Shown here piece after piece: positions 1 through 17,250 of a DNA stretch of 20,000 bases. Source of the stretch: an uncultured virus (IMG/VR IMGVR_UViG_3300034082_001676) (lineage: Duplodnaviria; Heunggongvirae; Uroviricota; Caudoviricetes). Under the pieces are notes generated by a model. That model did not search any database and had not been told where the DNA came from. It was given only the letters and a program-made list of their open reading frames with translations. Position 1 is the stretch's first letter. Each line of letters begins with the position of its first letter. The position numbers and the translations under genes were made by a program. The stretch spans positions 52,578 to 72,577 of the IMG/VR virus record IMGVR_UViG_3300034082_001676. One strand, given 5' to 3'.

Positions 1-162
1 ATTACACCTGTGGTATTGCCACAGATTACACCTGTGGCAGTTAGCAGGGTTCAACCACAGGATTTAAATCTGTTGCAGGTCGACAACGAAGAATATAAAA
101 AGCGTCGAGACGAAGCACTACAGAAGCCAGGTGCTGTTGTAGGTAATATTACACTGCGTTGA
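1..162 (+). CDS. Partial hypothetical protein (3' end only)
   Basis: Frame 1 is open from the window edge (ITPVVLPQITPVAVSRVQPQDLNLLQVDNEEYKKRRDEALQKPGAVVGNITLR) to TGA at 160-162. It contains a 13-bp direct repeat ATTACACCTGTGG (1-13, 25-37). Confidence 0.6.
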   Translation: MTPVVLPQITPVAVSRVQPQDLNLLQVDNEEYKKRRDEALQKPGAVVGNITLR

Positions 163-178
163 TTGTTAGGTATTAAAA

Positions 179-529
179 ATGCGTTATTACATCGTCAGTT
201 GGGATCAGCAGGGTGTAGAGTTTTTTGAAGAGATCACAGAACATCATCCTGACAATTGGGCCAAGGATCATTTGTTTGACACCATCAAACAAAACAAGCG
301 GGTAGAAAAGCCCATGAGCTTTAGTATTCAATCATTGAAACTTCGTGCCCAATTCAACAGTCATCGCCACTATGAAATCTACGTATTCACCAGCAATGAC
401 GACATTACAAAAACAGATATTCAAGATTGGTTCACTACAGATGCTCAGAGCTTTGCCAATTGGGTACGCAAGAATTACAGCTACAAGATCTGGGATGAAC
501 GAGCCACAGAGCAAGCAGTAATTGTATGA
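179..529 (+). CDS. Hypothetical protein, 116 aa
   Basis: ORF with AGGT upstream and an ATGA overlap with the next gene; no recognised motif. Confidence 0.8.
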   Translation: MRYYIVSWDQQGVEFFEEITEHHPDNWAKDHLFDTIKQNKRVEKPMSFSIQSLKLRAQFNSHRHYEIYVFTSNDDITKTDIQDWFTTDAQSFANWVRKNYSYKIWDERATEQAVIV

Positions 530-744
530 ACCTACGAATTGATAAACTAATTGATGATGCTAGGTTGACTGCTGTGGCGGAGATGTTTGAGGTTGAATTG
601 ACCAAGTTTGCCGAGTTGATTGTGGCAGAATGTATTCAGACTATTCAGATGGGTATCACTCGTGATGGCCACAATACTGAAAAGTATCAAAGGTCAATTA
701 AACACATTAAACAGATTAAAGAACATTTCGGAGTTGAAGAATGA
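526..744 (+). CDS. MNERI/KFAELIV/FGVEE paralogue 1, hypothetical, 72 aa
   Basis: MNLRIDKL...KFAELIVAEC...IKEHFGVEE; ATGA overlaps at both ends. Confidence 0.85.
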   Translation: MNLRIDKLIDDARLTAVAEMFEVELTKFAELIVAECIQTIQMGITRDGHNTEKYQRSIKHIKQIKEHFGVEE

Positions 745-977
745 ACGACAGAATTCGTGAACTATACCAACAAGCCCATAGCATACGACACCATGACGGT
801 GATCCTATGCGGGACGGTAATCCACCTACTGTTTATTGGCAAGGTGAAAAGAGTGCTAAAAAGTTCGCCCAGTTGATTGTTCAGGAATGTGCAAGTATGG
901 TAGATCTTCATGGTCGATGGATTTTGTATGATAAACTTGCTGTAAAAATTAAACGAGAGTTCGGAGTTGAAGAATGA
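741..977 (+). CDS. MNERI/KFAELIV/FGVEE paralogue 2, 78 aa
   Basis: MNDRIRELYQQA...KFAQLIVQEC...IKREFGVEE; GGAG RBS in the junction repeat. Confidence 0.85.
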   Translation: MNDRIRELYQQAHSIRHHDGDPMRDGNPPTVYWQGEKSAKKFAQLIVQECASMVDLHGRWILYDKLAVKIKREFGVEE

Positions 978-1171
978 ACAATGATGAAGATCCTCAGCGA
1001 GAAAAAATCTTTGAACTTCTCCAAGAGATTATATATTTAAAAGGACAGATAACTTATCTGCAGGAACAATTAAGCAGCGTAGAAGATGACCGGGATAATA
1101 GAATTGATCGGTATGAAAAACAAGTTGCTGACCTTGAACAACAATTGGGCAATGCCCTATTTCGGAGTTGA
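974..1171 (+). CDS. Hypothetical coiled-coil protein, 65 aa
   Basis: Starts at a junction repeat; heptad-like L/I/E/Q-rich sequence; ends inside the next repeat in a shifted frame (FRS*). Confidence 0.75.
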   Translation: MNNDEDPQREKIFELLQEIIYLKGQITYLQEQLSSVEDDRDNRIDRYEKQVADLEQQLGNALFRS

Positions 1172-1174
1172 AGA

Positions 1175-1468
1175 ATGATTGTTCCAGATTTAATCAAAGC
1201 CGTTGAATCAGGTTGGGAGAAATCCAGACTTGAAGGACTTAAAATTCAAGGAAAACATCGTATGAACGAACGAATTAAAGAACTTGCTAGACAGGCAGGA
1301 CTAATTGCACCCTATGGTAGTGATCGTGAAGAGTTGAGTGATTTTGATTACAGAGAATTCGCCGAGTTGATTGTGAAAGAATGCGCCGGAAAAGTTGATT
1401 GGATCCTTGCCGAAGGTGGTAAGACACAGGGTGATTTGATTCGGGAACATTTCGGAGTTGAAGAATGA
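1175..1468 (+). CDS. MNERI/KFAELIV/FGVEE paralogue 3 (family domain starts at ATG 1262; 29-aa in-frame extension from 1175)
   Basis: MNERIKELARQAG at 1262 with AAGGA upstream; EFAELIVKEC; IREHFGVEE. ATG 1175 lies in the junction repeat. Confidence 0.8.
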   Translation: MIVPDLIKAVESGWEKSRLEGLKIQGKHRMNERIKELARQAGLIAPYGSDREELSDFDYREFAELIVKECAGKVDWILAEGGKTQGDLIREHFGVEE

Positions 1469-1542
1469 GTTTTATTTTAGGATTCATTGCAGGTTACATA
1501 GTAGCAGCTATCATATATGCATACCGTTCAAATGAAGATTAA
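1465..1542 (+). CDS. Small hydrophobic peptide, 25 aa (not in ORF track)
   Basis: MSFILGFIAGYIVAAIIYAYRSNED*; starts at the ATG of the junction repeat with its GGAG RBS and fills the gap; single TM-like stretch. Confidence 0.65.
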   Translation: MSFILGFIAGYIVAAIIYAYRSNED

Positions 1543-1556
1543 AGGACAACGACAGA

Positions 1557-1790
1557 ATGAATGAACGAATTCGACAACTTGCTGAACAGGCTGGGCTAAC
1601 CACGGTTGCTGATGTCTACCTTATGAAGAAATATATGCCTAACGAAGTAAAGTTCGCCGAGTTGATTGTGCAGGAATGCGCTAATATTGCACGTAATGTG
1701 GGAAACATTTCTGAACCCGATGACTGGGCGCTGGATAGATGCTATGAGATTGAACAAAGAATTCAAGACCGTTTTGGAGTTGAAGAATGA
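1557..1790 (+). CDS. MNERI/KFAELIV/FGVEE paralogue 4, 77 aa
   Basis: MNERIRQLAEQAG...KFAELIVQEC...IQDRFGVEE; AAGGA upstream. Confidence 0.85.
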   Translation: MNERIRQLAEQAGLTTVADVYLMKKYMPNEVKFAELIVQECANIARNVGNISEPDDWALDRCYEIEQRIQDRFGVEE

Positions 1791-1978
1791 AAAAAGATTG
1801 GGACACCCAAGAACAATCAGATATGTTTGACAAGTTTCTTGACGACACATCGGATTCAAGGTCGCAAACTTGGAAAGGTTGGCACGGCCGCCGTGCGCAC
1901 GGTTACGATGAACTAGAATGGGAAGCATTTCAGTATGGATGGAATGCCGCAAAGGTATGTTTTGGAGTTAAAGAATGA
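1787..1978 (+). CDS. Hypothetical protein, 63 aa; unrelated body but FGVKE C-terminus
   Basis: Bounded by two junction repeats; Trp-rich; lacks the MNERI and KFAELIV blocks. Confidence 0.8.
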   Translation: MKKDWDTQEQSDMFDKFLDDTSDSRSQTWKGWHGRRAHGYDELEWEAFQYGWNAAKVCFGVKE

Positions 1979-2208
1979 ACATAGATCACGGTGCGATATT
2001 TCAACAATGTGTATACGATGCAGATAATCGGTTTGTTGATTTAACACTCAGACCGGTTGCTGTGAATTCCCGTACATTTATGCTTACTATGACAGACACA
2101 TCCAACGATGCAGAAATGGACATGATGATTGAACTTTATCTCACAGAAGAAAATTTGAAAAAAGTGATTTACCGTTTGATAAATGTATTAGAAGGTATTG
2201 GAAAATGA
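1975..2208 (+). CDS. Hypothetical protein, 77 aa
   Basis: Starts at a junction repeat; ATGA overlap with the next gene. Confidence 0.8.
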   Translation: MNIDHGAIFQQCVYDADNRFVDLTLRPVAVNSRTFMLTMTDTSNDAEMDMMIELYLTEENLKKVIYRLINVLEGIGK

Positions 2209-2444
2209 ACGAACGAATCATAGAACTGGCTGACCACGCAAAAGAATATGCCAATCAGTGTACAAAGGATCTTGACGGTGACATTTCTTGGCACTGGATG
2301 GACTATTACACTGAAAAGTTCGCCGAGTTGATTGTTGAGGAATGTCTCTACATTGTCGAAGGTGAAGATGATGGTAGTGCTGATACTAAAAGTGTTCGAT
2401 TGGCAATGATAAGAATGAAACAACATTTCGGAGTTATAGAATGA
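2205..2444 (+). CDS. MNERI/KFAELIV/FGVEE paralogue 5, 79 aa
   Basis: MNERIIELA...EKFAELIVEEC...MKQHFGVIE. Confidence 0.85.
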   Translation: MNERIIELADHAKEYANQCTKDLDGDISWHWMDYYTEKFAELIVEECLYIVEGEDDGSADTKSVRLAMIRMKQHFGVIE

Positions 2445-2686
2445 ATCAAGTCCCGCTCAAAGCACACGAAGAATGGGCCCAGCAGAGAGTAGAAATTGCC
2501 CGGCGTGACACCGATCAGGCCTTGCATTTGGTTGCAATGGCGCATTTGAATTTGATGCAACATCTCAAGTACGGATTTGACCCAAAGACTGCACACAGCA
2601 CCTTGATCAGCGTGGGACAAATATATCCTAAACTAAAAGCAAAGATGAATGACTTGACTCGAGAGTTAGAGAATAAAAACGGTTGA
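2441..2686 (+). CDS. Hypothetical protein, 81 aa
   Basis: Starts at the last full junction repeat; its stop overlaps the -35 box of the next promoter. Confidence 0.8.
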   Translation: MNQVPLKAHEEWAQQRVEIARRDTDQALHLVAMAHLNLMQHLKYGFDPKTAHSTLISVGQIYPKLKAKMNDLTRELENKNG

Positions 2687-2711
2687 CATTAAATGATATT
2701 GAGTGTATAAT
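2683..2711 (+). promoter_or_regulatory. Consensus sigma70-type (phage early) promoter
   Basis: TTGACA at 2683-2688, 17-nt spacer, TATAAT at 2706-2711; an AAAGGA RBS and ATG 2744 follow. Confidence 0.9.
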
Positions 2712-2718
2712 ATACACT
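2702..2718. promoter_or_regulatory. Operator-like inverted repeat over the -10 box
   Basis: AGTGTATA-A-TATACACT, perfect 8-bp arms with a 1-nt spacer. The function is inferred. Confidence 0.5.
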
Positions 2719-2743
2719 TAGACAGTTAATCAAAGGACTTGAT

Positions 2744-3769
2744 ATGAGGAAGTTAGCAACCATTAGGAAGATTGATGCACTGCGTCCTATCCCGGATGCT
2801 GATGCTATCGAATGTGCAGTCGTAGGTGGATGGACGGCTGTGGTTAAGAAGGGTGAATATGCCGCAGGTGATCTTGCTGTGTACTGCGAAATCGATTCTT
2901 GGATTCCTCACGCACTGGCACCATTTTTGAGCAAGGGCAAGGAGCCCAGAGTGTTTGATGGTATTCAAGGCGAACGTCTGCGTACAATGAAGCTTCGAGG
3001 ACAGTTGAGCCAGGGGCTGTTGTTGCCATTGTCTACATTGACTATGATAGATTCGGAACTATTTGAAGGACTCGATGTATCATTTCCACTAGGCATTGTG
3101 AAATACGAAGCCCCCATCCCAGCACAATTGGCAGGAGAAGTCAAGGGCATGTTCCCAGGTTGGATTCAAAAGACTGACCAAGAACGTGTTCAAAACTTGA
3201 AAGAAGAATTGGACTACTGGCTTAGAGAACAACACGTTTGGGAAGTTACTGAAAAGCTGGATGGCAGCTCAATGACTGTGTATCTGCGTGATGGAGAGTT
3301 TGGTGTGTGTTCACGTAATCTTGAACTCAAGCCCAGCGAAACCAACAGCCTGTGGAAGGTTGCAGTACGCAATGATTTGGAGTTGAAGCTTCGTCGTGCC
3401 GATCGTAATCTTGCACTGCAAGGTGAGTTGATTGGAGAAGGTATCCAAGGTAATCCATACAAGCAAAAAGGACAGGAATTTTTCTTGTTTGATATCTACG
3501 ACATCGATACCAGCAAGTACTTTACTCCTGCCGAACGCAAGGCATTTGTTCAAGAACACGACATCAAACACGTGCCTGTGCTGGCATTTGGGGCTGAACT
3601 GTCAGATACCCTAGGAGTCAACAGCATTGACGGAATTCTGCGTTTTGCAGAAGGTAAATCAGTTATGGGAATGATAGGTTGTGAACGTGAAGGCGTTGTG
3701 TTTAAAAGCAAGGCCATGCAATGTTCGTTCAAGGCGATCTCTAATAAATTTTTGTTAAAAAGTGAATAA
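2744..3769 (+). CDS. ATP-dependent RNA ligase, Rnl5/DRB0094-type, 341 aa
   Basis: N-terminal MRKLATIRKI...IPDADAIE...VYCEIDS (OB-like) domain; nucleotidyltransferase motifs TEKLDGSS, GELIGEGIQGN, LFDIYD, REGVVFK and SFKAISNKFLL. Confidence 0.92.
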   Translation: MRKLATIRKIDALRPIPDADAIECAVVGGWTAVVKKGEYAAGDLAVYCEIDSWIPHALAPFLSKGKEPRVFDGIQGERLRTMKLRGQLSQGLLLPLSTLTMIDSELFEGLDVSFPLGIVKYEAPIPAQLAGEVKGMFPGWIQKTDQERVQNLKEELDYWLREQHVWEVTEKLDGSSMTVYLRDGEFGVCSRNLELKPSETNSLWKVAVRNDLELKLRRADRNLALQGELIGEGIQGNPYKQKGQEFFLFDIYDIDTSKYFTPAERKAFVQEHDIKHVPVLAFGAELSDTLGVNSIDGILRFAEGKSVMGMIGCEREGVVFKSKAMQCSFKAISNKFLLKSE

Positions 3770-3775
3770 GATATT

Positions 3776-4018
3776 ATGAAAACGAGCGGAACACCCTCAA
3801 GCTCTAGCCCGGGCATAACGGGCTTTATCGAAATATTCGAAGGTCGACTGAATAAGATGAAGTTGCATCTTAAAGAAGAATTGAGCAAAGCCAAACACGA
3901 ACGAAATCGTAAGCTGATCAAAAGTCAGTTGGCTGAGGCCCGCAAACTTAACCGGACACTGAAAGACATGCGTAATGCCAATACCCGACTGTGTCCACAT
4001 TGCGGAGAGAAGCTATGA
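3776..4018 (+). CDS. Hypothetical basic coiled-coil protein with C-terminal CPHC, 80 aa
   Basis: K/R-rich helix ending in LCPHCGEKL (half zinc ribbon). Confidence 0.8.
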   Translation: MKTSGTPSSSSPGITGFIEIFEGRLNKMKLHLKEELSKAKHERNRKLIKSQLAEARKLNRTLKDMRNANTRLCPHCGEKL

Positions 4019-4134
4019 CAGAAGGAGAACGAGCAGGACGCTGGGCTATGCTGTATATCTATACGGTGTTGTTTGCTTTATGGTTTAATATTGTCGCCAT
4101 TGCGGTCTGGCATATCAAGGAGTGGTTTTTATGA
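4015..4134 (+). CDS. Small membrane protein, 39 aa (not in ORF track)
   Basis: MTEGERAGRWAMLYIYTVLFALWFNIVAIAVWHIKEWFL*; GGAG RBS; ATGA overlaps at both ends. Confidence 0.75.
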   Translation: MTEGERAGRWAMLYIYTVLFALWFNIVAIAVWHIKEWFL

Positions 4135-4463
4135 ACGAAAGAATTAGAGAACTTGCTAAACAGGCTGGTGATTATGTAAATGAAGTATATACACCGCCTG
4201 TAAGATCCAAGACTCCGGGTAAGATTTGGGAAGATGGTCACATTGATTGGCATACACAGTTTAACGAAAAATTCGCCCGGTTGATTGTGACAGAATGTTG
4301 TCAAGCATTAAATCCCATGTTGCGTGACATGATTAGTCGCGGACAGGGAGTAGACATGGTTAAACAACATTTTGAAATGAATCTCAACGAAATCACAACG
4401 GCCATGCTGGACCGTACGATTAACCAATGTGAACAACAATTAGCGGAGAAGAAGAATGACTGA
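4131..4463 (+). CDS. MNERI/KFAELIV paralogue 6 with fused C-terminal extension, 110 aa
   Basis: Start placed at ATG 4131 (AAGGAG at 4117-4122). MNERIRELAKQAG...KFARLIVTEC...VKQHFE, then reads on into MNLNEITT. Confidence 0.85.
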   Translation: MNERIRELAKQAGDYVNEVYTPPVRSKTPGKIWEDGHIDWHTQFNEKFARLIVTECCQALNPMLRDMISRGQGVDMVKQHFEMNLNEITTAMLDRTINQCEQQLAEKKND

Positions 4464-4653
4464 TAGATTTGATTTAGAACAACAAATTATGGACTGCTGG
4501 AAGATCACTGATGACATTCCCATGATGGAAGCTCAAGGTGCCAATACCGCAGACATGACCTCATTGGCCTGTGTTTATGAATACAAGTTCAAACAACTGT
4601 GGGCTACCTTTGAAACTATGATTGCCGAACGGCAGTTCAAGGACACACAATGA
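4456..4653 (+). CDS. Hypothetical protein, 65 aa
   Basis: GGAG RBS; MTDRFDLEQQIMDCW...; overlaps both neighbours. Confidence 0.8.
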   Translation: MTDRFDLEQQIMDCWKITDDIPMMEAQGANTADMTSLACVYEYKFKQLWATFETMIAERQFKDTQ

Positions 4654-4826
4654 CACTTAGCGAAATATATATCAGCGTATGGTTTATGTCGTTGATATTT
4701 TTTACTATAACAACAGGTCTATCTATGTATGAGACCGAGGGAGTATTGGCAACAACTATATTCACTTCTATGATGAGTGTGGTATTTGTTATTTCTTTGT
4801 TTGCAACTGTGTTTTTAATTACCTAA
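4650..4826 (+). CDS. Small two-helix membrane protein, 58 aa (not in ORF track)
   Basis: MTLSEIYISVWFMSLIFFTITTGLSMYETEGVLATTIFTSMMSVVFVISLFATVFLIT*; AAGGA RBS and ATGA overlap; fills the gap. Confidence 0.7.
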   Translation: MTLSEIYISVWFMSLIFFTITTGLSMYETEGVLATTIFTSMMSVVFVISLFATVFLIT

Positions 4827-4836
4827 AGGATATAAA

Positions 4837-5352
4837 ATGATTAATATGAAAGAATGGATGGAATTGGTTGGTTATCGAATTACAGAGGGTAGTGCATACG
4901 GCTGGCAATGCTATGGTTCTGATGCATATGCATTAGATTCGTGGAATGGTGATCACGACGGGCATAGTTTCACAGTCATCTTTGATACCAAAGACCAAAC
5001 AGTTTACGAAGTGCAGGTACACGACTATGTGCATAATCGTGCATACCGTATGATCAATCCAGACTTCCAAAAGAAAAATAAAAAAGAAGCTCGTCGTCGA
5101 GACGTCAACAAAGACGAAGCCTGGGACGATGTCAATTATATTGATCTAGAAGTAGATGACGACTTTATCCAAAAGTGTTTGGCTATTCAAGCAGGTGAAG
5201 ATTATGATACAAAAGTGTCAGTTCCGTTGGAACTAGAAGATGATAAAATGTTTGAACTTATGCGTATGGCACACGAACAGGACATTACTCTAAACCAGCT
5301 GGTAGAAAATATACTGCGTAATATGATTGCCGAAAAAGAAATTACTGTTTAG
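4837..5352 (+). CDS. Hypothetical protein, 171 aa, possible C-terminal ribbon-helix-helix-like segment
   Basis: AAGGA RBS. C-terminus VSVPLELEDDKMFELMRMAHEQDITLNQLVENILR has a strand-helix-helix pattern (inference). Confidence 0.8.
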   Translation: MINMKEWMELVGYRITEGSAYGWQCYGSDAYALDSWNGDHDGHSFTVIFDTKDQTVYEVQVHDYVHNRAYRMINPDFQKKNKKEARRRDVNKDEAWDDVNYIDLEVDDDFIQKCLAIQAGEDYDTKVSVPLELEDDKMFELMRMAHEQDITLNQLVENILRNMIAEKEITV

Positions 5353-6229
5353 TAGCTTGGATGTCAAAGCCGTTGCGACAGGCATCGGCTTTGCAAATTA
5401 TAGAGTTTTGAACCCCTGTAAATTCTATTCCTAGTTTTCCAACAAGGCCACCTTGACCACAGTGGCCTCGTTTTATACGGCCCCAGGCATCAACGATTAG
5501 TTGTTCAACGCCGGCCATACACTGTTGTCCGGGAAACGTATTCTTTTTCTCAAGCATAAGAGTTTGAAAGTCTGAAAATTCTTCTTCTCCTGTGTCATTA
5601 ACGTAAATCAAATCTCCGTGTTGGCGTTTTAATTTTACAGCGTGTTCAAGTTTGTATTCCATCGGCTGTTTGTTAATAGCGGGATCTTCAAACAGCATCT
5701 TTCTATGAACGAGTTGATCGGGCCACATTTTTTTTATTTTAGTAATAGTATCTTCTAATTCTTGCCATCGGTCCGGCAACATACTCACTGTTATACTTAC
5801 GTTTACATTTTTCTTTTTAGCAGCATATAAGCATAGCATAAAATGACTGATCGGAGTGTGTTCTGAATGTACTTCTAGATTTATACTGTCAACTGTATCT
5901 AACAGGGTTTTCCATTCTGCAATAGGCATACTGGCATTGGTTCGTATGCATACGTTACTGTTTTTTGTCTTGATGTGTTTTATCAAATCCACAAGCCAGG
6001 GCCACTGAGTAACTTCCCCTCCTGTAAAATAATAATTACAGGTTTTGCCTAGGGTTTTGGCAAAGTCACTAACTTGATCAACAAATTTCAAACAGTGTTC
6101 GATGTTTGGCAAGTCAATACTGCCACTTTTTATAATATCAGGACAATAACTGCAATTGTAATTGCAGTGATTCATCAACCACCAGTCGATATAGAAATAT
6201 CGATTGTCTCTAATACTGCGAAGTTGCAT
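5342..6229 (-). CDS. Radical SAM protein with C-terminal Cys region, 295 aa
   Basis: CNYNCSYC, FTGGEV, IRTNAS; C-terminal CMAG...RGHC...ICKADAC..FDI. Confidence 0.92.
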   Translation of the reverse strand: MQLRSIRDNRYFYIDWWLMNHCNYNCSYCPDIIKSGSIDLPNIEHCLKFVDQVSDFAKTLGKTCNYYFTGGEVTQWPWLVDLIKHIKTKNSNVCIRTNASMPIAEWKTLLDTVDSINLEVHSEHTPISHFMLCLYAAKKKNVNVSITVSMLPDRWQELEDTITKIKKMWPDQLVHRKMLFEDPAINKQPMEYKLEHAVKLKRQHGDLIYVNDTGEEEFSDFQTLMLEKKNTFPGQQCMAGVEQLIVDAWGRIKRGHCGQGGLVGKLGIEFTGVQNSIICKADACRNGFDIQATKQ

Positions 6230-6787
6230 CTAGGCCATCCAACTGTCAGTGGCCTGTTCTCCGCATAACTGCGTGGATTCTATCCACATCTCTTTGGTAT
6301 TCGTTTCTAAAAGCCAAACTGGATCAGGTGTTTTTAAAGTCAGCCAGCTTTGTTGTCTGCTCCACGGCGGATCGCCTAGTAGCTCGCCTTCAAGTTGTCC
6401 TGGGCCCCAGCTGCTTTGTCCAAAAAATATTCTAAAACGCTCTGGATAATCGTTGTCGGCTAGATGATGAAACATACCAACATTGCTGGTCATTGACCAA
6501 TCGGCATTGATCCTATGTGTTGAATCCATCTTCCAATCACTGTGATGTAACATCCATACTGTGTTGAGTCCCACTGGACCACCCCAATAGAGATTGAAAT
6601 CTTGAGCCAGCTCTATGTTTATTTCTTTGAGGACGCTGTTTATTGAATGGCTTGTTGGGCGATTTACACAGAGTGCCAGAGAACCTCGATTTGTACTATG
6701 AGTGACCAGTAACACTGTTTTGTCAAATCTTGAATCGCTCATGTTAGGAGGAGATATTAATAAATCTCCTTTTTCGATTCTATGCAT
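6230..6787 (-). CDS. yqgE: YqgE/AlgH family (DUF179) protein, 185 aa
   Basis: GDLLISPPNMSDSRFDKTVLL, LCVNRP, YWGGPV, FRIFFGQSSWGPGQLEGEL...SWL match the DUF179 blocks. Confidence 0.88.
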   Translation of the reverse strand: MHRIEKGDLLISPPNMSDSRFDKTVLLVTHSTNRGSLALCVNRPTSHSINSVLKEINIELAQDFNLYWGGPVGLNTVWMLHHSDWKMDSTHRINADWSMTSNVGMFHHLADNDYPERFRIFFGQSSWGPGQLEGELLGDPPWSRQQSWLTLKTPDPVWLLETNTKEMWIESTQLCGEQATDSWMA

Positions 6788-6793
6788 TCTAGA

Positions 6794-7036
6794 TCAACTC
6801 CAGTCTGGAAGTGGGCCGCCATATTTCTTGCCCTTGATTCTTTTGCCTTTTACTGTGGTGCGCTCATTGCCAATCTTGTGTGATTTATTGCCGTGTCGAC
6901 CACGATAGCCTTGGCTCTTGCAGCTGGCCAGTTGACTGGCACCTAGTGCAGCATTGGGTTTGCCGCTCGTGCAAAGAGCTCGGCTCGCGGGCTCTTCGTC
7001 TAATTCTTTGTTTTGGATAACTTCAAATATTCGCAT
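6794..7036 (-). CDS. Small basic Gly/Lys/Arg-rich protein, 80 aa (start reassigned to ATG 7036)
   Basis: MRIFEVIQNKELDEEPASRALC...SCKSQGYRGR...KGKKYGGPLPDWS. This start removes the overlap with the upstream gene and lies 4 nt after TAAATA. Confidence 0.8.
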   Translation of the reverse strand: MRIFEVIQNKELDEEPASRALCTSGKPNAALGASQLASCKSQGYRGRHGNKSHKIGNERTTVKGKRIKGKKYGGPLPDWS

Positions 7037-7040
7037 CAAG

Positions 7041-7049
7041 TATTTATTA
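7041..7049 (-). promoter_or_regulatory. T4-like late-promoter-like motif (TAATAAATA)
   Basis: Minus strand reads TAATAAATA-CTTG-ATG; resembles the T4 late consensus TATAAATA; no SD between motif and ATG. Confidence 0.55.
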
Positions 7050-8216
7050 GGATTCAAAAGTTTTGTCGCCGGGCCAAAGAGGCAGTTTGGTACCTGGCGC
7101 TCTTTTAGGTATTTTACTGTCTGCACTGCTTACACAGCTAGGACTAATACAAGGTTTAGGGCCGTCAAAAAGCTGAAATCCTGTTTCTATATTACCTAAC
7201 GGTGCATCGTGGCAACTATAGCTACGTTTAATGCTGCCGTCTGGTTCACGTATAATAATGCCTCTGTAGCCGCTTGAGCATTCCCAATCTGTAAACTTGT
7301 TAAAATTAAAAGCATTGAACCGTTCAGCTTGATCCATGTACCAAATCTTCTGTTCTTTATCTACGAACTCTACTTGAAAATGCTGTGGTATTTTACTGTG
7401 TTCTTGCTTGTAAATAGGATCTGGTGTTTTAAAGAATTTGGGTTCAGGACGTTTAACTAACTTGGTCTTGGTTGCTTTATCTTCAGTGAAGGCACGTTGC
7501 GGCATACCGTTGTGTAGACGTTTTAACATGTCAGGAGTATATCCATCAACTACACGACTAGCAGTGGGATCACTCTGAGGCTTTAGTGTAACATTGATGC
7601 CTTGATTGTGAAAGAACAGAGCATTTTCAAAATCACGTTCAAACCATTCAGGAACCATAACCTGATTAATAGTTATTTGAACATCGTGTTGCTGGCATAG
7701 TATTAGTTTGTCGGCAAACTCCTGCATCTTCTCGGGTGTGTCTACGTGTTCTGTATGTAAACTAGCAGTGATACTAGCACGATGAAATTTACTAACAGCA
7801 GGACAATACTTTTCTTCAAACCATTTAAGTGGTCTACTCATATTGCTAGTCATGTGTACGCTAGTATAGTTTGTGTTTGCTACATCATCATTTAGATAAT
7901 TAAGGATATCAATATAACCAGGATGGAAGGTAGGCTCGCCGCCACTAAGACTAAAATGAAAACTGTTAAAATTGCGTTCTCTAGCTTGTCGTTTGATTTC
8001 ATCTATTGTGCGTAAACACAGTTCGGTTGGTCTGTGGTCTTTTGTATCACTGCGGGCATAGGGCCAGCAATAGCTACAACGGTAATTACAATAACGTCCT
8101 AACAGCCAACTGACTGTAAAGAGATCTTTGTACAACATTGTACGTTGTCCTACACGAACAATATCGTTGTAGGGTATTTGGGTAAAGTCGTAGGCCGACC
8201 AACTTAAATCATTCAT
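7047..8216 (-). CDS. Radical SAM protein with C-terminal Cys region, 389 aa
   Basis: CNYRCSYC, SLSGGEPT, MTSNMS; C-terminal CSSG...DGSIKRSYSC...PCISPSC..AD. Confidence 0.93.
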   Translation of the reverse strand: MNDLSWSAYDFTQIPYNDIVRVGQRTMLYKDLFTVSWLLGRYCNYRCSYCWPYARSDTKDHRPTELCLRTIDEIKRQARERNFNSFHFSLSGGEPTFHPGYIDILNYLNDDVANTNYTSVHMTSNMSRPLKWFEEKYCPAVSKFHRASITASLHTEHVDTPEKMQEFADKLILCQQHDVQITINQVMVPEWFERDFENALFFHNQGINVTLKPQSDPTASRVVDGYTPDMLKRLHNGMPQRAFTEDKATKTKLVKRPEPKFFKTPDPIYKQEHSKIPQHFQVEFVDKEQKIWYMDQAERFNAFNFNKFTDWECSSGYRGIIIREPDGSIKRSYSCHDAPLGNIETGFQLFDGPKPCISPSCVSSADSKIPKRAPGTKLPLWPGDKTFES

Positions 8217-8763
8217 AAGGTTGTTGTAACGGATCTATACTAATTTCATTTACACAAATATCTTTTGGTTGTTCTACAATCCATTTAATATATAGTGCGG
8301 CTTGAACAATGTCTAAACATTTTCTTGTAGGATGTTTAGATTGTACATTTGTTAAACTTCCAAAACTAACTAAGGTAATTTTAGGACCGTTATCCCAAAC
8401 ACCATTCATACCTAGTGTATTGCAGTAGTCTCTCAATGCTTTCTTTTCTGCGTTATACAACCAAGCGCCGCCTTTCTTCACACGGTCAGTGGTAGATCCT
8501 ATGCAAATGATTTGAAGTCTATGATTATTCTCTGTACATTTTTTGTAAACTGCATCTAATAAAATAGTTTGATTAAATTTATGTAAAGCACTACAGTTTA
8601 TAAAGATATCATAATCTAATGTGAGATCCGCTAGTTTTTTCTGATCATCATTTTTTGTTAGATCAAAGCCTGTAGTACGGCTAGCAAAAAAAACATCTGG
8701 GTACAATTTAAATAATTCGGCAGCAAGGCCGTAATTTTTATTTCCTGCTACTAGTATTTTCAT
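8209..8763 (-). CDS. Short atypical SDR-family oxidoreductase, 184 aa
   Basis: N-terminal MKILVAGNKNYGLA (degenerate Gly motif), DIFINCSA, CIGST, catalytic YxxxK (YNAEK), C-terminal VNEISI. Confidence 0.75.
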   Translation of the reverse strand: MKILVAGNKNYGLAAELFKLYPDVFFASRTTGFDLTKNDDQKKLADLTLDYDIFINCSALHKFNQTILLDAVYKKCTENNHRLQIICIGSTTDRVKKGGAWLYNAEKKALRDYCNTLGMNGVWDNGPKITLVSFGSLTNVQSKHPTRKCLDIVQAALYIKWIVEQPKDICVNEISIDPLQQPYE

Positions 8764-9919
8764 ATGATAATTCTGGTATTAAAGTTGCTAGATCTTGGTT
8801 GCGAGACTTGTCTAGTGCGTTTGTATAATGATAAAACTTAGGAAGTTTATGACTCCAGTCTTCTGCATTCATATAATCAATAATTCCTTTGACTTTATCT
8901 ATATGCAGATAAGGTTCTAATAATTTAACCACTTGTTCTTTTAGATGCTGTGGCAAGACCCGGATGTTTAATTCTTCCGGGTGATTTAAAATATTAAAAT
9001 AAATTCTATGTCCGTAGGGAACTGCCCAATCTATTAATTCGTTGAGGCGAAGTATATTATACATCTGTACTGTGCAATGGATCTCTATTGAACAATTTTT
9101 TAATGTTCTTATCTTTTCAAAGTTTTCTTGGATATGCTGCCAACTGCTGGGAAATCTAATATAACGATCAAGTTCTCCTGTTGCATCAATAGAACAATTC
9201 AATTGTACACGTTTAAAATGCGTCCACCGATCTAATAAATGTTTTGGAACATTAGTAAGATTTGTGTTGTATTTCAATCTAATATTTTTAGCAGTACCCC
9301 TATCTATAAAATAATCCAAGAGTTTGTGCTGTGCTTTAATAATTGTTGGCTCGCCGCCTGTTAGATATATTTCTTCTACAGTGTCAGCAATAAGATATAA
9401 ATTTTCCCAAGTTTTTTCTCTTTCAGGCCAATCCATGTTGTTTAATCTATTGTATTCGCTTTGACTAAGAACTTCTCCTATCAAGGGCCATTCTGCTGTC
9501 CACATATTACTAGCATAAGGATTACACATACGACATTTTAGATTACACAAATTACTTAATCGAATGTCAACATATCTAATATTAAATGTCGCCTGGATCG
9601 GATACTCTCGGTCCGTCCCCCATTTATCGTTGGCTGCTTGTCTTGCACTTTTAATACCTGCATCTTCTTCTCGAAAACATCTAACGCACATGTCAGGTCG
9701 TTCTCCATCTAAAAACTGCTGTCTTATTTTTGTATATGTAGGACTATTCCAAGCTTCTAACATATCATCACGTTGTATTTGATATGACGAGCCAGGACTT
9801 TTTAAAATGTTATTGTTTTTGGGATCGCTGTTGCAACAAACACGTAAATTTCCGCTGGCATTTGTAGCCAAATGCATCCATGGCAATACACAGAATGTTT
9901 TAGAAGTTATTTCATCCAT
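8738..9919 (-). CDS. Radical SAM protein with N-terminal twitch-like domain, 393 aa
   Basis: FCVLPWMH...LRVCC...MCVRC, then DIRLSNLCNLKCRMC, YLTGGEP, YNTN, SIDA...YIRFP. Confidence 0.93.
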   Translation of the reverse strand: MDEITSKTFCVLPWMHLATNASGNLRVCCNSDPKNNNILKSPGSSYQIQRDDMLEAWNSPTYTKIRQQFLDGERPDMCVRCFREEDAGIKSARQAANDKWGTDREYPIQATFNIRYVDIRLSNLCNLKCRMCNPYASNMWTAEWPLIGEVLSQSEYNRLNNMDWPEREKTWENLYLIADTVEEIYLTGGEPTIIKAQHKLLDYFIDRGTAKNIRLKYNTNLTNVPKHLLDRWTHFKRVQLNCSIDATGELDRYIRFPSSWQHIQENFEKIRTLKNCSIEIHCTVQMYNILRLNELIDWAVPYGHRIYFNILNHPEELNIRVLPQHLKEQVVKLLEPYLHIDKVKGIIDYMNAEDWSHKLPKFYHYTNALDKSRNQDLATLIPELSYENTSSRK

Positions 9920-11142
9920 TTTTTTAAAAACTCAAATTTTTCAAACGTTTCATCTCTTGCGCCGTCAAGTGTTTTATTATACTCTAAAAACTTATTCCAT
10001 TTAGTGTTATCATATTGTTCAGATCCATTAAAAAATCTAACAACATCTCTAATACTATTGCCTACATTTAATTGTAAACCGTTCAAGTTGTCTTGATGTT
10101 TTAGATAAGATTCTAGTTTTACTTTAATTTCTTGCCGGGCTTCACCGGTCCAGATTCTACTGTCTAAGAACTTTGGCCAAGTGACAAAATGAACTCCTGT
10201 GAACACCTTCATATTTTTGAACCATTCGAACGTTTCGGGGACATAGTAAATGTTCAGCGCCTGTACTGTTATTTTTCCCTGTATAAAAACATTAGGTAAT
10301 TCTTTCTGCAATAGTCTTATGTTATCTTCGATTACTTTGCTATCTGCTCCTGATCTAATATATTCATTAAGATCTGGAGGCCCATCTAAACTCACTGCTG
10401 CAATAACTTTTTTAAATTTTTTCCAGTAATCAACTACATTGTATTTTTTATTAGATAGCATACTTAAATTAGTTGCATAATTTAAAGTAATCTTATCAGC
10501 GCGATGCATTACACTTTCAAGAATTCTATAATGATCATTGTCGTATAAAGGTTCGCCGCCCGCAAACCAAATTTCATCTACATTACTCATCAACTCTGGT
10601 AAGTTTTCAAAAAATTCTTCCGGATAACTCTTTAACAATGATTTTTTAGTTAGATTAAGATCTATCATTTCTTGTTGCCAACTATCTTCGTGTAGGTGTG
10701 ATATTTTTTTATAATCTTCAAACCAACGTGTACTATCCATAGGGTGGCACATACGACATTTAAAATTGCAAAGATTGCTAAGTTTAAATTCTATCCAAGT
10801 AGGCTTATTGTTTAAACTATAATCTTCGTTAATAGATTTTAAATTTGTTTCTGCATTAATTACCTGTCTGCCCACTGAAGAGCTGTTGTACTTCATACGA
10901 AGACTTTGGGCGCCAACATCTTCCAGTTTCCAGCAGACATCACAGCGTTCGTTTCTAACGCCGTTTATAAGGTCGTTGCGAAGCTGTTTCATTTCTTCGT
11001 TGTTCCAGGCCTGAAGCAAAGTTTCTTTTTTAATATTTGATAATGCTGGCAAACTTCTGCAGCAGGCCTTTATACTACCGTCAGTTTTAGTAGATAGGTG
11101 TGTAAACGGAGCAATACAAAAAGTTTCTTTTTTTACATCCAT
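9907..11142 (-). CDS. Radical SAM protein with N-terminal twitch-like domain, 411 aa
   Basis: FCIAPFTH...IKACC...RCDVC, then SNLCNFKCRMC, FAGGEP, YATN, SLDG...YIR. Confidence 0.93.
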   Translation of the reverse strand: MDVKKETFCIAPFTHLSTKTDGSIKACCRSLPALSNIKKETLLQAWNNEEMKQLRNDLINGVRNERCDVCWKLEDVGAQSLRMKYNSSSVGRQVINAETNLKSINEDYSLNNKPTWIEFKLSNLCNFKCRMCHPMDSTRWFEDYKKISHLHEDSWQQEMIDLNLTKKSLLKSYPEEFFENLPELMSNVDEIWFAGGEPLYDNDHYRILESVMHRADKITLNYATNLSMLSNKKYNVVDYWKKFKKVIAAVSLDGPPDLNEYIRSGADSKVIEDNIRLLQKELPNVFIQGKITVQALNIYYVPETFEWFKNMKVFTGVHFVTWPKFLDSRIWTGEARQEIKVKLESYLKHQDNLNGLQLNVGNSIRDVVRFFNGSEQYDNTKWNKFLEYNKTLDGARDETFEKFEFLKKWMK

Positions 11143-13100: not shown

Positions 13101-13101
13101 A

Positions 13102-14226
13102 TTAGTCCTTGTATAGGTATTCAAAACAAGTTCTATGATCTAATCCTCTTAGCTCATCTATTTTATTCAAATATTCTTTTAGTTCTTTTAGTTTTTGTGG
13201 ATCGTGTTTGAGATTTTTAGTCATATTTTTAATTCTATCATTGGGATCATTTTTATATTGTGCTGTTATTTGATCTATTACACTGTGTGGTAAAGCATCC
13301 AATGTCATAAAGATTGGCCAAAATATAATACTTACATTAAAGTTAAGTGAAAAATTAAATTGATTTGAGTATAATCTAATTTTATCAATTTCAAAAATAT
13401 TTAAAGCACCCACTGCTATTTGTAATTTGACCTTGATATTTTTTGATCTTGTAGAAAGCAGTTTATAATTTTCTAAAAGGCTGTCATGATTTGTGGGGAA
13501 TCGTATATATTCATTAATTTGTTTGCCGCCATCTATGCTTAGGCTTAGATTAACTTGTTCAAAATGAGACCACATATCGATCCACTCTTGATCGATGTAA
13601 GTTCCGTTGGTATCATACCAAAGAACAATATTTTTTGCTAGATCTTTTTCAATTAAAAATTCTATAATTTGTCTATGTTTTTTTATTAGTAAAGGTTCTC
13701 CTCCACTAAAGTACAACACTCGTACCTTTGGAACCCATTCTTGATAGTTGTCTAAAAAACTAGGATGTAGGGGCCAGCGAACATTTTCATCCTTCTTAAA
13801 AAATTTGAGATGTTCAAAATTTTCATATTCATCATACCATGTATTGCTGTTGTCAGGAGTACACATTATACATTTTAAATTACACAGATTCCCCAATCTC
13901 AAATCAACTGCCCATGGAAAATCAACGGCCTGTGTTGGATACGATTTTTTTTCTATTTGAGACCATTTTTGATTTTCAAAACTTCGACGGCTTGGAATAC
14001 TTTTTTCTTCGTTAAGTCTACAGGTATCACACTCTGTGGGCCATTTGTTGTTTAAAAATTGTTCTCGAACACGTTGATAATCTTGACCTTGCCATATGTC
14101 TTCTAGGCTATTTTTGTTTACATGAAGATTGCCTAGTGTCTTTGATTGACAACACAGTCTAACTTTTCCGTGATTGGTTGTACTTAAATTAACAAAAGGT
14201 GCTACACAAAATATATTTTTATTCAT
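13102..14226 (-). CDS. Radical SAM protein with N-terminal twitch-like domain, 374 aa
   Basis: FCVAPFVN...VRLCC...ECDTC, then DLRLGNLCNLKCIMC, FSGGEP, YDTNG, SIDG...YIRFP. Confidence 0.93.
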   Translation of the reverse strand: MNKNIFCVAPFVNLSTTNHGKVRLCCQSKTLGNLHVNKNSLEDIWQGQDYQRVREQFLNNKWPTECDTCRLNEEKSIPSRRSFENQKWSQIEKKSYPTQAVDFPWAVDLRLGNLCNLKCIMCTPDNSNTWYDEYENFEHLKFFKKDENVRWPLHPSFLDNYQEWVPKVRVLYFSGGEPLLIKKHRQIIEFLIEKDLAKNIVLWYDTNGTYIDQEWIDMWSHFEQVNLSLSIDGGKQINEYIRFPTNHDSLLENYKLLSTRSKNIKVKLQIAVGALNIFEIDKIRLYSNQFNFSLNFNVSIIFWPIFMTLDALPHSVIDQITAQYKNDPNDRIKNMTKNLKHDPQKLKELKEYLNKIDELRGLDHRTCFEYLYKD

Positions 14227-15619: not shown

Positions 15620-15620
15620 T

Positions 15621-16259: not shown

Positions 16260-16325
16260 ATTTTAAATTTTCGTGCTTTCATATCGTGTGTGCAGAAACA
16301 AGAATTAAATGGACATCTTACAGGT
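16212..16325. repeat. Direct repeat, copy A (98 bp identical plus 16 bp with 3 mismatches)
   Basis: 16212-16309 is identical to 17203-17300; similarity extends to 16325/17316; offset 991 bp. Confidence 0.97.
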
Positions 16326-16402
16326 ATACTGCCATCGGGTCTAGTGCTAAGGTGTACCCAGGGTAAGATACACCAAGTTTTTGAAGGATATTTTGATTGC
16401 AT
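16256..16402 (-). pseudogene. Chimeric 48-aa mini-ORF joining the ends of two different radical SAM genes
   Basis: MQSKYPSKTWCILPWVHLSTRPDGS-I-PVRCPFNSCFCTHDMKARKFKI*. First half matches the N-terminus of 14219-15619, second half the C-terminus of 17247-18272. Confidence 0.85.
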
Positions 16403-16412
16403 GTAATATGTA

Positions 16413-17183: not shown

Positions 17184-17184
17184 C

Positions 17185-17250
17185 TTATTTTTCCTTGATA
17201 ACAAAGAAATTTAATATAATTTCTTGTTCGTTGTTTTGTGAATATTTCAT
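17185..17250 (-). pseudogene. Truncated FkbM 5' stub, 21 aa
   Basis: MKYSQNNEQEIILNFF-VIKEK*; first 16 codons identical to 15621-16259; stop lies 1 nt before the SGNH ATG. Confidence 0.85.

What the first reader, a model, noticed from the sequence alone, without database searches (positions are those of the whole stretch)
526..2686. Gene-cassette-like array delimited by an 18-bp RBS/stop/start junction repeat
Seen: TTYGGAGTTGAAGAATGA occurs 7 times at irregular 188-466 bp intervals. Each copy supplies a GGAG RBS and the ATG of the next ORF, and in six copies the overlapping TGA ends the previous one. It ends paralogues (FGVEE) and also unrelated genes (974-1171, 1787-1978), and it starts unrelated genes. 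Inference: the motif is a portable expression and recombination joint that lets small genes be inserted, deleted or shuffled while staying translationally coupled. This would be integron-like, but no integrase or attC hairpin is visible.
Basis: partly seen in the sequence, partly recalled or inferred. Interest (0 to 1): 0.8.

Follow-up and report, generated by a model that had tools for sequence, protein, structure and literature searches.

The report
Shared gene-junction repeat shuffles phage genes
An 18-base repeat at the boundaries of small genes in a large lake-water phage is both the conserved tail of a large family of small proteins and the ribosome-binding start signal of the next gene, and related phages differ by whole genes and half genes swapped exactly at such conserved stretches.

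Summary
There are 7 copies, all on the + strand, against 0.04 expected.

The repeat is mainly the 3' end (..HFGVEE + TGA) of a very large, unnamed family of small phage proteins. That end is fused to a GGAG Shine-Dalgarno and an ATGA stop/start overlap. Six family members lie in the window.

Its synonymous sites are not free. In 117 FGVEE ends from many phages, Gly is GGA in 115, Val is GTT in 114 and the stop is TGA in 114. Copies also occur in another reading frame and in non-coding DNA.

Two further blocks of the family, at the N-terminus and inside the gene, are equally fixed at the DNA level.

Comparative evidence supports a recombination joint:
- Two unrelated genes of the window are 97-98% identical to copies in other phages exactly from motif to motif.
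- A 204-nt one-gene cassette is present or absent between two motif copies in related contigs.
- Family genes exchange halves at the internal block.

No integrase or attC-like hairpin was found. Other indels in these phages sit at promoter, terminator, tRNA and RBS repeats. The mechanism therefore looks like general short-homology recombination, closest to the PeSL shuffling of T4-type phages, and not like an integron. The family's function is unknown.

The parts
727..744 (+). junction motif copy 1 (TTCGGAGTTGAAGAATGA): end of family gene F1, start of F2
960..977 (+). junction motif copy 2: end of F2, start of unrelated ORF 974-1171; left edge of the 97%-identical unit shared with L059
1161..1178 (+). 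junction motif copy 3: read in the +2 frame by ORF 974-1171 (stop at 1169-1171); its ATG starts F3
1451..1468 (+). junction motif copy 4: end of F3, start of a 25-codon hydrophobic ORF
1773..1790 (+). junction motif copy 5 (TTT variant): end of F4, start of unrelated ORF 1787-1978; left edge of the unit shared with L120/L125
1961..1978 (+). junction motif copy 6 (1 mismatch, ..FGVKE*): end of unrelated ORF 1787-1978, start of ORF 1975-2208; right edge of the shared unit
2427..2444 (+). junction motif copy 7 (2 mismatches, ..FGVIE*): end of F5, start of ORF 2441-2686
526..744 (+). family gene F1 (72 aa; MN.RI..L / KFAELIV.EC / HFGVEE)
   Evidence: A1; HMM
741..977 (+). family gene F2 (78 aa); its 5' half (714-892) is 89% identical to L051 6931-7109, and the similarity ends at the internal block
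974..1171 (+). unrelated 65-aa ORF (cassette); 95% aa identity in L059, where the RNA ligase is only 64% identical
1175..1468 (+). family gene F3 (97 aa; 29-aa N-terminal extension, family core from 1262)
1465..1542 (+). 25-codon hydrophobic ORF; a weak relative lies in L059
1557..1790 (+). family gene F4 (77 aa); 284 metagenomic relatives, none with a name; predicted three helices
1787..1978 (+). unrelated 63-aa ORF (cassette); body 167/170 nt identical in L120 between different neighbours
1975..2208 (+). unrelated 77-aa ORF; relatives in L127 and L051; ends ..GGAAAATGA, overlapping the start of F5
2205..2444 (+). family gene F5 (79 aa)
2441..2686 (+). unrelated 81-aa ORF; 84-89% relatives in L170-L178, each preceded by a motif copy, with or without a 204-nt cassette
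4122..4463 (+). family gene F6 (113 aa, different C-terminus), outside the reported span
607..623 (+). internal block (I-block, TTYGCCSAGTTGATTGT) of F1; further copies at 864-880, 1358-1374, 1653-1669, 2319-2335 and 4272-4288
   Evidence: D2
1262..1276 (+). N-terminal block (ATGAACGAACGAATT) of F3; further copies at 526-540, 741-755, 1557-1571, 2205-2219 and 4131-4145
   Evidence: D5
2683..2711 (+). perfect sigma-70-type promoter (TTGACA-17-TATAAT) just after the array; a repeat family in related phages that also bounds indels

Best explanation
The array is a translationally coupled operon of small early-type genes in a large uncultivated lake-water phage. It is built around a greatly expanded family of about 75-aa, three-helix proteins of unknown function. 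Each family gene has three short blocks that are conserved as DNA: N (ATGAACGAACGAATT), I (TTCGCCGAGTTGATTGT) and C (TTCGGAGTTGAAGAATGA). Two hypervariable segments lie between them. The reported 18-mer is the C block. It encodes ..FGVEE-stop and at the same time supplies a GGAG(T)TGA Shine-Dalgarno, a 7-nt spacer and the ATG of the next gene in an ATGA overlap. Shown: the nucleotide-level constraint, and the position of the exchange breakpoints. Inferred: (1) the C block is held constant mainly because it is the translation-initiation region of the downstream gene; (2) because the blocks are the only stretches identical between otherwise unalignable genes, the phage's general recombination machinery crosses over in them, within a genome and between co-infecting phages. 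The result is deletion, insertion and exchange of whole genes (junction to junction) and of half genes (junction to I block). Every recombinant keeps an intact frame end, RBS and start. Unrelated genes that have acquired the tail, in any frame, ride the same joints.
For: Nucleotide-level constraint. Of 117 unique FGVEE ends, Gly is GGA in 115 (28% elsewhere in the same genes), Val is GTT in 114 (40%), Glu is GAA in 115 and 117 (77%) and the stop is TGA in 114. An ATGA overlap occurs in 194 of 255 family genes. The C block was not part of the search patterns that fetched these loci.
Independence from the protein. Of 214 unique copies with up to 2 mismatches, 30 end non-family ORFs in frame, 5 end non-family ORFs in the +2 frame (..FRS*) and 12 are non-coding. 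One family gene in L051 carries a 1-nt frameshift yet keeps the DNA motif.
RBS role. 191 of 206 motif ATGs open ORFs of at least 40 aa. There is no internal promoter or terminator in 526-2686.
Breakpoints in the window's own genes. For ORF 1787-1978 against L120, the body is 167/170 identical and the flanks 37/84 and 34/91. For ORF 974-1171 against L059, the body is 178/183 and the flanks 28/80 and 33/90.
Presence/absence cassette. A 204-nt one-gene cassette lies between two motif copies in L172, L174 and L177 and is absent in L173, L175, L176 and L178. It is 203/204 identical in two backgrounds whose upstream flank is only 85/105 identical. Each background has a twin without the insert at 103/105.
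Endpoint statistics. 59 of 70 endpoints of inter-phage HSPs at 88% identity or more inside arrays lie in blocks that cover 24.9% of array DNA.
Half-gene exchange. Of 54 inter-phage gene pairs with one variable half at least 80% identical, 40 have the other half below 55% and only 3 have both halves at 80% or more.
Machinery. A RecA/UvsX-type gene is present in 3 of 5 related records, including both records that are at least 98% complete.
Generality. Other indels in these phages are bounded by tRNA 3' ends, a promoter repeat, a terminator hairpin and AAAGGAG RBSs.
Against: The first breakpoint test, with narrow blocks +-6 nt and HSPs of at least 60 nt at 80% identity or more, gave only 119 of 426 endpoints in blocks against 23% expected (p=0.015). 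The strong result uses block margins that I widened.
All data are metagenomic assemblies, and chimeric joins at repeats of 18-40 nt cannot be fully excluded. However, each state of the 204-nt cassette is seen in at least 3 contigs from different samples, and the window's array recurs in 3 IMG/VR contigs and 23 runs.
The array is stable in its own population: 23 of the 24 listed runs hold at least 93% of its sampled words. Shuffling is therefore not fast.
No read-level deletion or circle was shown. The joints have short sides and come from other family copies.
RBS activity is inferred, not measured. 8 of 9 family genes with no downstream gene still use GGA and GTT. RBS selection alone therefore does not explain the constraint, and it does not explain the I block either.
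Gene boundaries and motif copies coincide. Selection for intact genes after illegitimate recombination would therefore also put breakpoints there.
Confidence: 0.7

Rival explanations
1. The array is plain tandem duplication and divergence of one gene family. The repeat is conserved only because the protein needs ..FGVEE, and it has no role of its own in expression or recombination.
For: 96 of 102 exact copies sampled from IMG/VR end a family gene. Five of the 7 window copies do too.
Against: Synonymous sites are nearly fixed. Copies occur in the +2 frame, in non-coding DNA and on 30 non-family ORFs. The motif-to-motif units are 97-98% identical in foreign contexts, and a cassette is present or absent between copies.
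Confidence: 0.07
2. This is an integron-like site-specific cassette system. A dedicated recombinase recognises the repeat, as with attC, and excises or integrates circular cassettes.
For: The units are gene-sized, bounded by a repeat and all in one orientation downstream of a common transcription direction. One cassette is present or absent exactly between copies.
Against: PF00589 was found in 0 of 5 records, including genomes that are 98% and 100% complete, while the control rang in 14 of 14 genomes. No inverted repeat or hairpin lies next to any copy, and there is no Rfam match. Exchanges also occur at the N and I blocks and at promoter, terminator, tRNA and RBS repeats, which one site-specific enzyme would not explain. 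Serine recombinases and novel enzymes were not searched.
Confidence: 0.03
3. The DNA-level conservation of the blocks reflects an RNA-level regulator: a phage translational repressor or endoribonuclease that recognises the GGAG-containing initiation regions, as RegA and RegB do in T4 (recalled, not tested). Recombination at the blocks is only a by-product.
For: Positions that a minimal SD does not need are also fixed: TTC in 90 of 117 and the GAA GAA spacer. The I block shares C[CG]GAGTTGA with the C block. 8 of 9 ends with no downstream gene keep the codons.
Against: No candidate regulator was identified and no conserved RNA structure or family was found. This reading does not predict half-gene exchange. 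It is compatible with the best explanation and does not exclude it.
Confidence: 0.12
4. The mosaic patterns are artefacts of short-read metagenome assembly, which joins different phages at the shared blocks.
For: The k=31 contigs of the runs break exactly at the blocks, and depth rises there. Every comparative locus is an assembled contig.
Against: The blocks (17-40 nt) are shorter than reads. The same array was recovered in 3 IMG/VR contigs and 23 runs. The insert and no-insert states were each seen in at least 3 contigs of different samples, with consistent flanks. Duplicate recoveries include L120/L125, L130/L131 and L105/L106.
Confidence: 0.06

Closest known systems
PeSL (promoter-early stem-loop) cassettes of T4-type phages (Arbiol et al. 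2010, PMC2839356: abstract and sections 13 and 16 read; Comeau et al. 2014, PMC4122927: abstract read)
   Same: Both are short conserved expression signals repeated at the borders of small, mostly unknown genes in plastic regions. Indels and replacements between related phages are bounded by them. Recombination between two copies deletes one gene and leaves a hybrid copy. Inserted genes arrive with their own expression signal. The window's phage group also has a true PeSL-like promoter repeat (2683-2711).
   Different: PeSLs are intergenic, spread over about 100 bp, and consist of a sigma-70 promoter plus a terminator stem-loop. This motif is 18 nt (up to about 33 with the N block). It has no promoter or hairpin, acts at the level of translation (SD + ATGA) and is mostly coding: it is the C-terminus of a protein family. 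Mini-circles were shown for PeSLs but not here.
gp38 adhesin of T-even phages: hypervariable segments between conserved glycine-rich motifs (Trojet et al. 2011, PMC3157838: abstract and one passage read; Tetart et al. 1998, seen only as a reference title)
   Same: Within one gene, conserved motifs separate hypervariable segments, and recombination between the conserved motifs swaps segments.
   Different: That case is a single-copy host-range gene with a known function and protein-structural motifs. Here it is a multi-copy tandem family of unknown function. The conserved blocks are fixed at synonymous sites, and the terminal block doubles as the next gene's RBS.
Integron gene cassettes (IntI / attI / attC)
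   Same: Both have promoterless gene-sized units in one orientation, each bounded by a recurring site, and variable cassette content between relatives.
   Different: There is no integrase, no attC hairpin and no attI, and exchange also occurs at other repeats. The mechanism inferred here is homologous, not site-specific.
Conserved 'boundary' or linker sequences at gene borders of lambdoid phages, and relaxed homologous recombination by phage recombinases
   Same: Both involve short homologies at gene borders that serve as crossover points to generate mosaic phage genomes.
   Different: Those sequences are lineage-specific and sporadic. Here one sequence recurs at least 137 times across IMG/VR contigs and carries a defined translational function.

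Membership tests
Integron | Tyrosine-recombinase integrase (IntI) next to the array | tested here: not met
   PF00589 was found in 0 of 5 records (own contig plus 4 related, two at least 98% complete), while the control rang in 14 of 14 genomes. The own contig is only about 20% of a genome.
Integron | attC: imperfect inverted repeats that form a hairpin at each cassette's 3' end | tested here: not met
   No local inverted repeat lies beside any of the 7 copies. The 5 inverted pairs found lie 88-1131 nt apart.
Integron | Cassette content varies between relatives, with breakpoints at the recombination site | tested here: met
PeSL (T4-type promoter-early stem-loop) | Sigma-70-type promoter inside the repeat | tested here: not met
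   No promoter-like site overlaps any copy. The only perfect promoter is at 2683-2711.
PeSL (T4-type promoter-early stem-loop) | Stable stem-loop (terminator or attenuator) inside the repeat | tested here: not met
   Searches found no + strand terminator-like site and no hairpin at the copies.
PeSL (T4-type promoter-early stem-loop) | Indels and replacements between related phages are bounded by copies, leaving one hybrid copy | tested here: met
   A2: L178 carries the left copy's GTTGAAG followed by the right copy's downstream flank.
PeSL (T4-type promoter-early stem-loop) | Circular excision products | not testable with these tools
   Only k-mer contigs of the runs were available.
Translational-coupling junction (SD + ATGA overlap) | SD-like purine run 5-9 nt upstream of an ATG that overlaps the upstream stop | tested here: met
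   GGAG, then 7 nt, then ATGA in all 7 copies. An ATGA overlap occurs in 194 of 255 family genes. Complementarity of GGAGUUGA to the 16S 3' tail is from recalled knowledge, and the host is unknown.
Translational-coupling junction (SD + ATGA overlap) | Downstream translation depends on the motif | not testable with these tools
   This needs reporter assays.
MN.RI / KFAELIV.EC / HFGVEE small-protein family (unnamed) | Match to the HMM built from the six window paralogues | tested here: met
   6 window genes and 298 ORFs in the fetched loci match. 284 metagenomic proteins match F4. No Pfam, PHROG or PDB match was found.

The most novel reading that the evidence does not exclude
The three DNA-fixed blocks are not just tolerated crossover points. 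They are maintained because they recombine: a built-in shuffling scaffold. Through it, large freshwater phages combine two independently assorting hypervariable half-genes into new small proteins (plausibly host-takeover or anti-defence factors) and recruit unrelated genes into a ready-made translational slot. This would be a recombinase-free, translation-level counterpart of integrons and PeSLs, shared as a common 'socket' across many phage lineages.
Probability: 0.2. Interest if true: 0.8.

Novelty: new variant of a known kind. Interest (0 to 1): 0.6.

Why it matters
How phages gain, lose and trade their many small genes of unknown function is a long-standing question. Illegitimate recombination followed by selection, and homology at conserved signals (PeSLs), are the two standing answers. 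Here a single translational junction, partly coding, recurs in at least 137 stretches of viral contigs. It marks the borders of whole-gene and half-gene exchange. This extends the 'regulatory signal as recombination joint' idea from promoters and terminators to RBS/stop-start overlaps. It also shows a small-protein family assembled from independently assorting halves. The motif gives a simple sequence handle for finding hyperplastic early regions and their cargo in uncultivated large phages. It also offers a natural design for seamless, expression-ready gene swapping.

Tried and rejected
- Orthologous-locus comparison anchored on the RNA ligase. Apart from two contigs of the same phage (L008, L009), ligase relatives at 94-68% identity share no flanking genes at E 1e-4, except u_3776 in L021/L023. 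No graded series of arrays was therefore available from that anchor.
- Near and distant DNA searches of GenBank phages hit the RNA ligase only. tblastn of F4 gave no match. A 56-nt junction query gave only E=0.4 hits. The Rheinheimera phage Barba hit is an unrelated gene ending EHLGGEE* with GGAGGTGAAGAATGA. It is suggestive of a generic strong RBS but is not evidence of kinship.
- Reads. Only k-mer contigs were served. The listed joints run block to block, with sides of 20-39 nt at 85% likeness, and come from other family copies. They give no verdict on deletions or circles. One contig of run X24 places 1178 next to 2458 with 13 other letters between (table 5c). This would mean a relative in which the 974-1171 gene is followed directly by the 2441-2686 gene, but I could not inspect it.
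- Structure of F4: three helices, pLDDT 80. No PDB match with E<=0.001 among 76 weak rows. The Atlas gives only viral hypothetical clusters. The function stays unknown.
- Rfam: 0 matches in 1-5400 at E<=1.
- Test of whether the codon constraint relaxes when no gene follows: only 9 such genes, of which 8 keep GGA and GTT. Too few to decide.
- Literature searches for a prior description of this motif, family or type of joint found only the PeSL and gp38 papers. Subscription journals are not covered.
Full report
**1. The observation**

The pattern TTYGGAGTTGAAGAATGA occurs 7 times in the window, all on the + strand. The copies are at 727, 960, 1161, 1451 and 1773 (exact), 1961 (1 mismatch) and 2427 (2 mismatches). 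Shuffles give 0.04 expected, and 0 of 200 shuffles reach 7.

The window is the last 20 kb of a 72,577-nt IMG/VR virus contig that CheckV rates about 20% complete. These 7 are the contig's only copies (7 forward, 0 reverse).

Each copy carries GGAG, 7 nt, then ATGA. In six copies the TGA ends the upstream ORF. In copy 3 the upstream ORF 974-1171 ends in another frame, at the TGA inside GTTGAAG (..LFRS*).

**2. What the genes are**

Six ORFs of the window are paralogues, 29-43% identical to the first: 526-744, 741-977, 1175-1468, 1557-1790, 2205-2444 and 4122-4463. They share the pattern MN.RI..L ... KFAELIV.EC ... HFGVEE (A1).

No Pfam family matches any of the small ORFs, and PHROGs gives only E>0.002 hits for non-family ORFs. 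F4 has 284 metagenomic relatives at E<=0.001 among 570 candidates. None has any name other than 'hypothetical protein'. The Atlas places F4 among viral hypothetical clusters.

With a 44-sequence alignment F4 folds as three helices (pLDDT 80.3). No PDB match reaches E<=0.001.

ORFs 974-1171, 1465-1542, 1787-1978, 1975-2208 and 2441-2686 are not family members. An RNA ligase (PF09414/PF21189) follows at 2744-3769. A long minus-strand cluster of radical-SAM/SPASM genes fills 5342-19511. The rest of the contig encodes ribonucleotide reductase, DNA ligase and structural proteins.

Related contigs reach 286-365 kb, so this is a group of large phages. 23 of the 24 listed runs, all lake-water metagenomes, hold at least 93% of the sampled words of 400-2800.

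**3. The motif is conserved as DNA, not only as protein**

An HMM of the six paralogues finds 298 ORFs in the fetched loci, of which 255 are unique. Of those, 117 end FGVEE. Codon use at these ends, with usage elsewhere in the same genes in brackets:

| Residue | Codon | Count at FGVEE ends | Background |
|---|---|---|---|
| Gly | GGA | 115 of 117 | 28% |
| Val | GTT | 114 of 117 | 40% |
| Glu (first) | GAA | 115 of 117 | 77% |
| Glu (second) | GAA | 117 of 117 | 77% |
| Stop | TGA | 114 of 117 | - |

194 of the 255 genes end in ATGA. The C-terminal block was not among the peptide patterns used to fetch these loci.

Of 214 unique copies with up to 2 mismatches:
- 167 end a family gene in frame.
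- 30 end non-family ORFs in frame (..[FLY]GVEE*).
- 5 end non-family ORFs in the +2 frame (..FRS*, ..YWS*). These include the window's 974-1171 and its 95%-identical relative in L059.
- 12 are non-coding.

In L051 a family gene with a 1-nt frameshift ends HFRS* yet keeps the DNA motif. 191 of 206 motif ATGs open an ORF of at least 40 aa.

A family-independent sample points the other way on emphasis. Of 102 unique copies with enough upstream DNA, 96 end a family gene (91 in frame, 5 in the +2 frame). 71 of the 102 are followed by something other than a family N-terminus. The motif is therefore first of all the family's tail, and it usually starts a different kind of gene.

**4. Two more DNA-fixed blocks**

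The same synonymous constraint holds at the family's other two conserved stretches.

| Block | Genes with block | Residue and codon | Count | Background |
|---|---|---|---|---|
| N (ATG AAC GAA CGA ATT) | 141 | Asn AAC | 125 of 141 | 44% |
| N | 141 | Arg CGA | 129 of 141 | 33% |
| N | 141 | Leu CTT | 106 of 141 | 23% |
| I (TTC GCC GAG TTG ATT) | 206 of 255 | Ala GCC | 164 of 199 | 29% |
| I | 206 of 255 | Glu GAG | 142 of 168 | 20% (against the genes' own preference) |
| I | 206 of 255 | Leu TTG | 173 of 206 | 31% |

The C block's constraint can largely be read as an RBS. From my own knowledge of the 16S 3' tail, GGAGUUGA matches the extended SD GGAGGUGA at 7 of 8 positions, which would explain the third-position T of GTT. 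The host is unknown and this was not tested. The I block has no such role, so something else also acts.

**5. Breakpoints**

(a) Window genes.
- ORF 1787-1978 with both flanking copies aligns to L120, between different neighbours. The body is 167/170 identical and the flanks are 37/84 and 34/91.
- ORF 974-1171 aligns to L059, whose RNA ligase is only 64% identical. The body is 178/183 identical and the flanks are 28/80 and 33/90.
- Half-gene matches of the window also end at blocks. 714-892 matches L051 at 89%, 1271-1383 matches L114 at 87%, 4131-4298 matches L028 at 84.5%, and 4266-4453 matches L090 at 81%.

(b) Presence/absence. Relatives of ORF 2441-2686 (84-89% aa) sit behind a 331-334-aa gene.
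- In L172, L174 and L177, a 67-aa gene lies between two motif copies.
- In L173, L175, L176 and L178 there is a single copy and no such gene.
- The 204-nt unit is 203/204 identical between L177 and L172, although their upstream flank is only 85/105 identical.
- Each has a twin without the insert at 103/105.
- L178 combines the left copy's sequence with the right copy's downstream flank, as a crossover inside the repeat would.

(c) Statistics.
- My first test used narrow blocks +-6 nt and HSPs of at least 60 nt at 80% identity or more. It was weak: 119 of 426 endpoints in blocks against 23% expected, p=0.015.
- I then listed the 59 inter-phage HSPs at 88% identity or more and widened the blocks to the protein-conserved columns +-4 nt. 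This choice was made after seeing the data.
- With the wider blocks, 59 of 70 endpoints inside arrays lie in blocks that cover 24.9% of array DNA. The figures are 58 of 75 for HSPs at 83-88% and 75 of 98 for HSPs at 78-83%.
- Of the 59 HSPs, 16 touch a contig end and 7 lie outside arrays. The remaining 36 split as: junction to I 13, I to junction 9, junction to junction 2, one end in a block 11, and neither end in a block 1.

(d) Independent assortment. I examined 205 family genes with both variable segments. 54 inter-phage pairs have one segment at least 80% identical in DNA. In 40 of these the other segment is below 55%, in 11 it is 55-80%, and in only 3 are both at 80% or more.

**6. Mechanism**

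No tyrosine recombinase is found in 0 of 5 records, two of them at least 98% complete, while the control rang in 14 of 14 genomes. No hairpin lies beside the copies and no Rfam family matches.

A RecA/UvsX-type gene is present in 3 of the 5 records, including both complete ones.

Other indels between related contigs carry 9-39-nt direct repeats at their edges. These repeats are tRNA 3' ends, a promoter repeat (AACGGTTGACATTAAATGGTTTTGGGTATATAATAC), a terminator hairpin, and AAAGGAG or TAAGGAG ribosome-binding sites.

The simplest reading is general short-homology recombination at whatever conserved functional signals recur, with the junction motif as the commonest such signal in these arrays. 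This is the logic described for PeSLs in T4-type phages (PMC2839356, sections 13 and 16 read; PMC4122927, abstract read) and, within a gene, for the conserved motifs of gp38 (PMC3157838, passages read).

The joint here differs from those cases. It is translational rather than transcriptional, partly coding, 18-33 nt long, and shared by many phage lineages.

Whether the blocks are kept identical because they recombine, or only recombine because other constraints keep them identical, is open. The fixed synonymous sites of the I block, and 8 of 9 ends with no downstream gene keeping GGA and GTT, lean slightly towards the first. The sample is too small to decide.

**7. Caveats**

All comparative loci are short-read assemblies. 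The k-mer contigs of the runs break at the blocks. The reproducibility of each arrangement across samples argues against chimeras, but long reads are needed.

The array itself is stable in its population. No read-level deletion or circle was seen, because the data served could not show one. RBS activity and the family's function are untested.

**8. Verdict**

It needs three corrections: the motif is the tail of a protein family, it is one of three blocks per gene, and the mechanism is homologous, not integron-like. I rate it a new variant of a known kind (signal-mediated modular shuffling), with moderate to high interest.

Noticed in passing
window 2677-2747 (promoter 2683-2711): A perfect TTGACA-17-TATAAT promoter with conserved flanks lies just after the array. 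The same roughly 40-nt element recurs many times in related loci (for example 6 times in L088, and in L041, L046, L048, L052 and L053). It forms the direct repeats at the edges of indels in L052, L170 and L038. It is a PeSL-like promoter repeat, but no stem-loop was checked.
   Followed up: partly
window 5342-19511, minus strand: This is a dense cluster of about nine radical-SAM genes, four of them with SPASM domains. It also holds an Asp/Asn beta-hydroxylase-domain protein (663 aa), an FkbM-type methyltransferase and an AlgH-like (DUF179) protein. That is unusual cargo for a phage and suggests peptide or nucleotide modification.
   Followed up: no
window 2744-3769 and loci L010-L087: The RNA ligase has relatives at 94-88% aa identity whose flanking genes share nothing with the window at E 1e-4. 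The ligase itself therefore sits in a mosaic region or moves as a unit.
   Followed up: partly
window I blocks (e.g. 1358-1374) versus C blocks (e.g. 1451-1468): The internal and terminal blocks share TTCG..GAGTTGA with a 2-nt offset, so they are read in different frames. Both resemble an extended Shine-Dalgarno. The reason is unexplained.
   Followed up: no
window 1536-1577: The stretch before F4 looks like the F1/F2 junction (713-756) with the 18-mer itself missing (repeat finder D6, D12), leaving an AAAGGA-type RBS. It may be a scar of an older rearrangement. L059 has a similar end on its small hydrophobic ORF.
   Followed up: partly
L035 3665-4661, L049 2140-2773: Indels of about 0.66-1.0 kb between related contigs are bounded by 27-nt repeats that look like tRNA 3' ends (..GTTCGA.TC....CACCA). 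This suggests tRNA genes are gained and lost by recombination between tRNA ends.
   Followed up: no
L187 (Rheinheimera phage Barba1A) 1279-1524: A cultured phage has an unrelated Cys-rich 81-aa gene ending EHLGGEE* with GAACATTTAGGAGGTGAAGAATGA, overlapping the next start. It is the same junction design with a perfect GGAGGTGA, found only at E=0.4.
   Followed up: partly
window 620-760, 1666-1830, 1935-2027: Alternative-frame ORFs run from the I block or from variable regions through the junction and read it as ..ELKNE... They are probably by-products of the conserved DNA and not genes.
   Followed up: no
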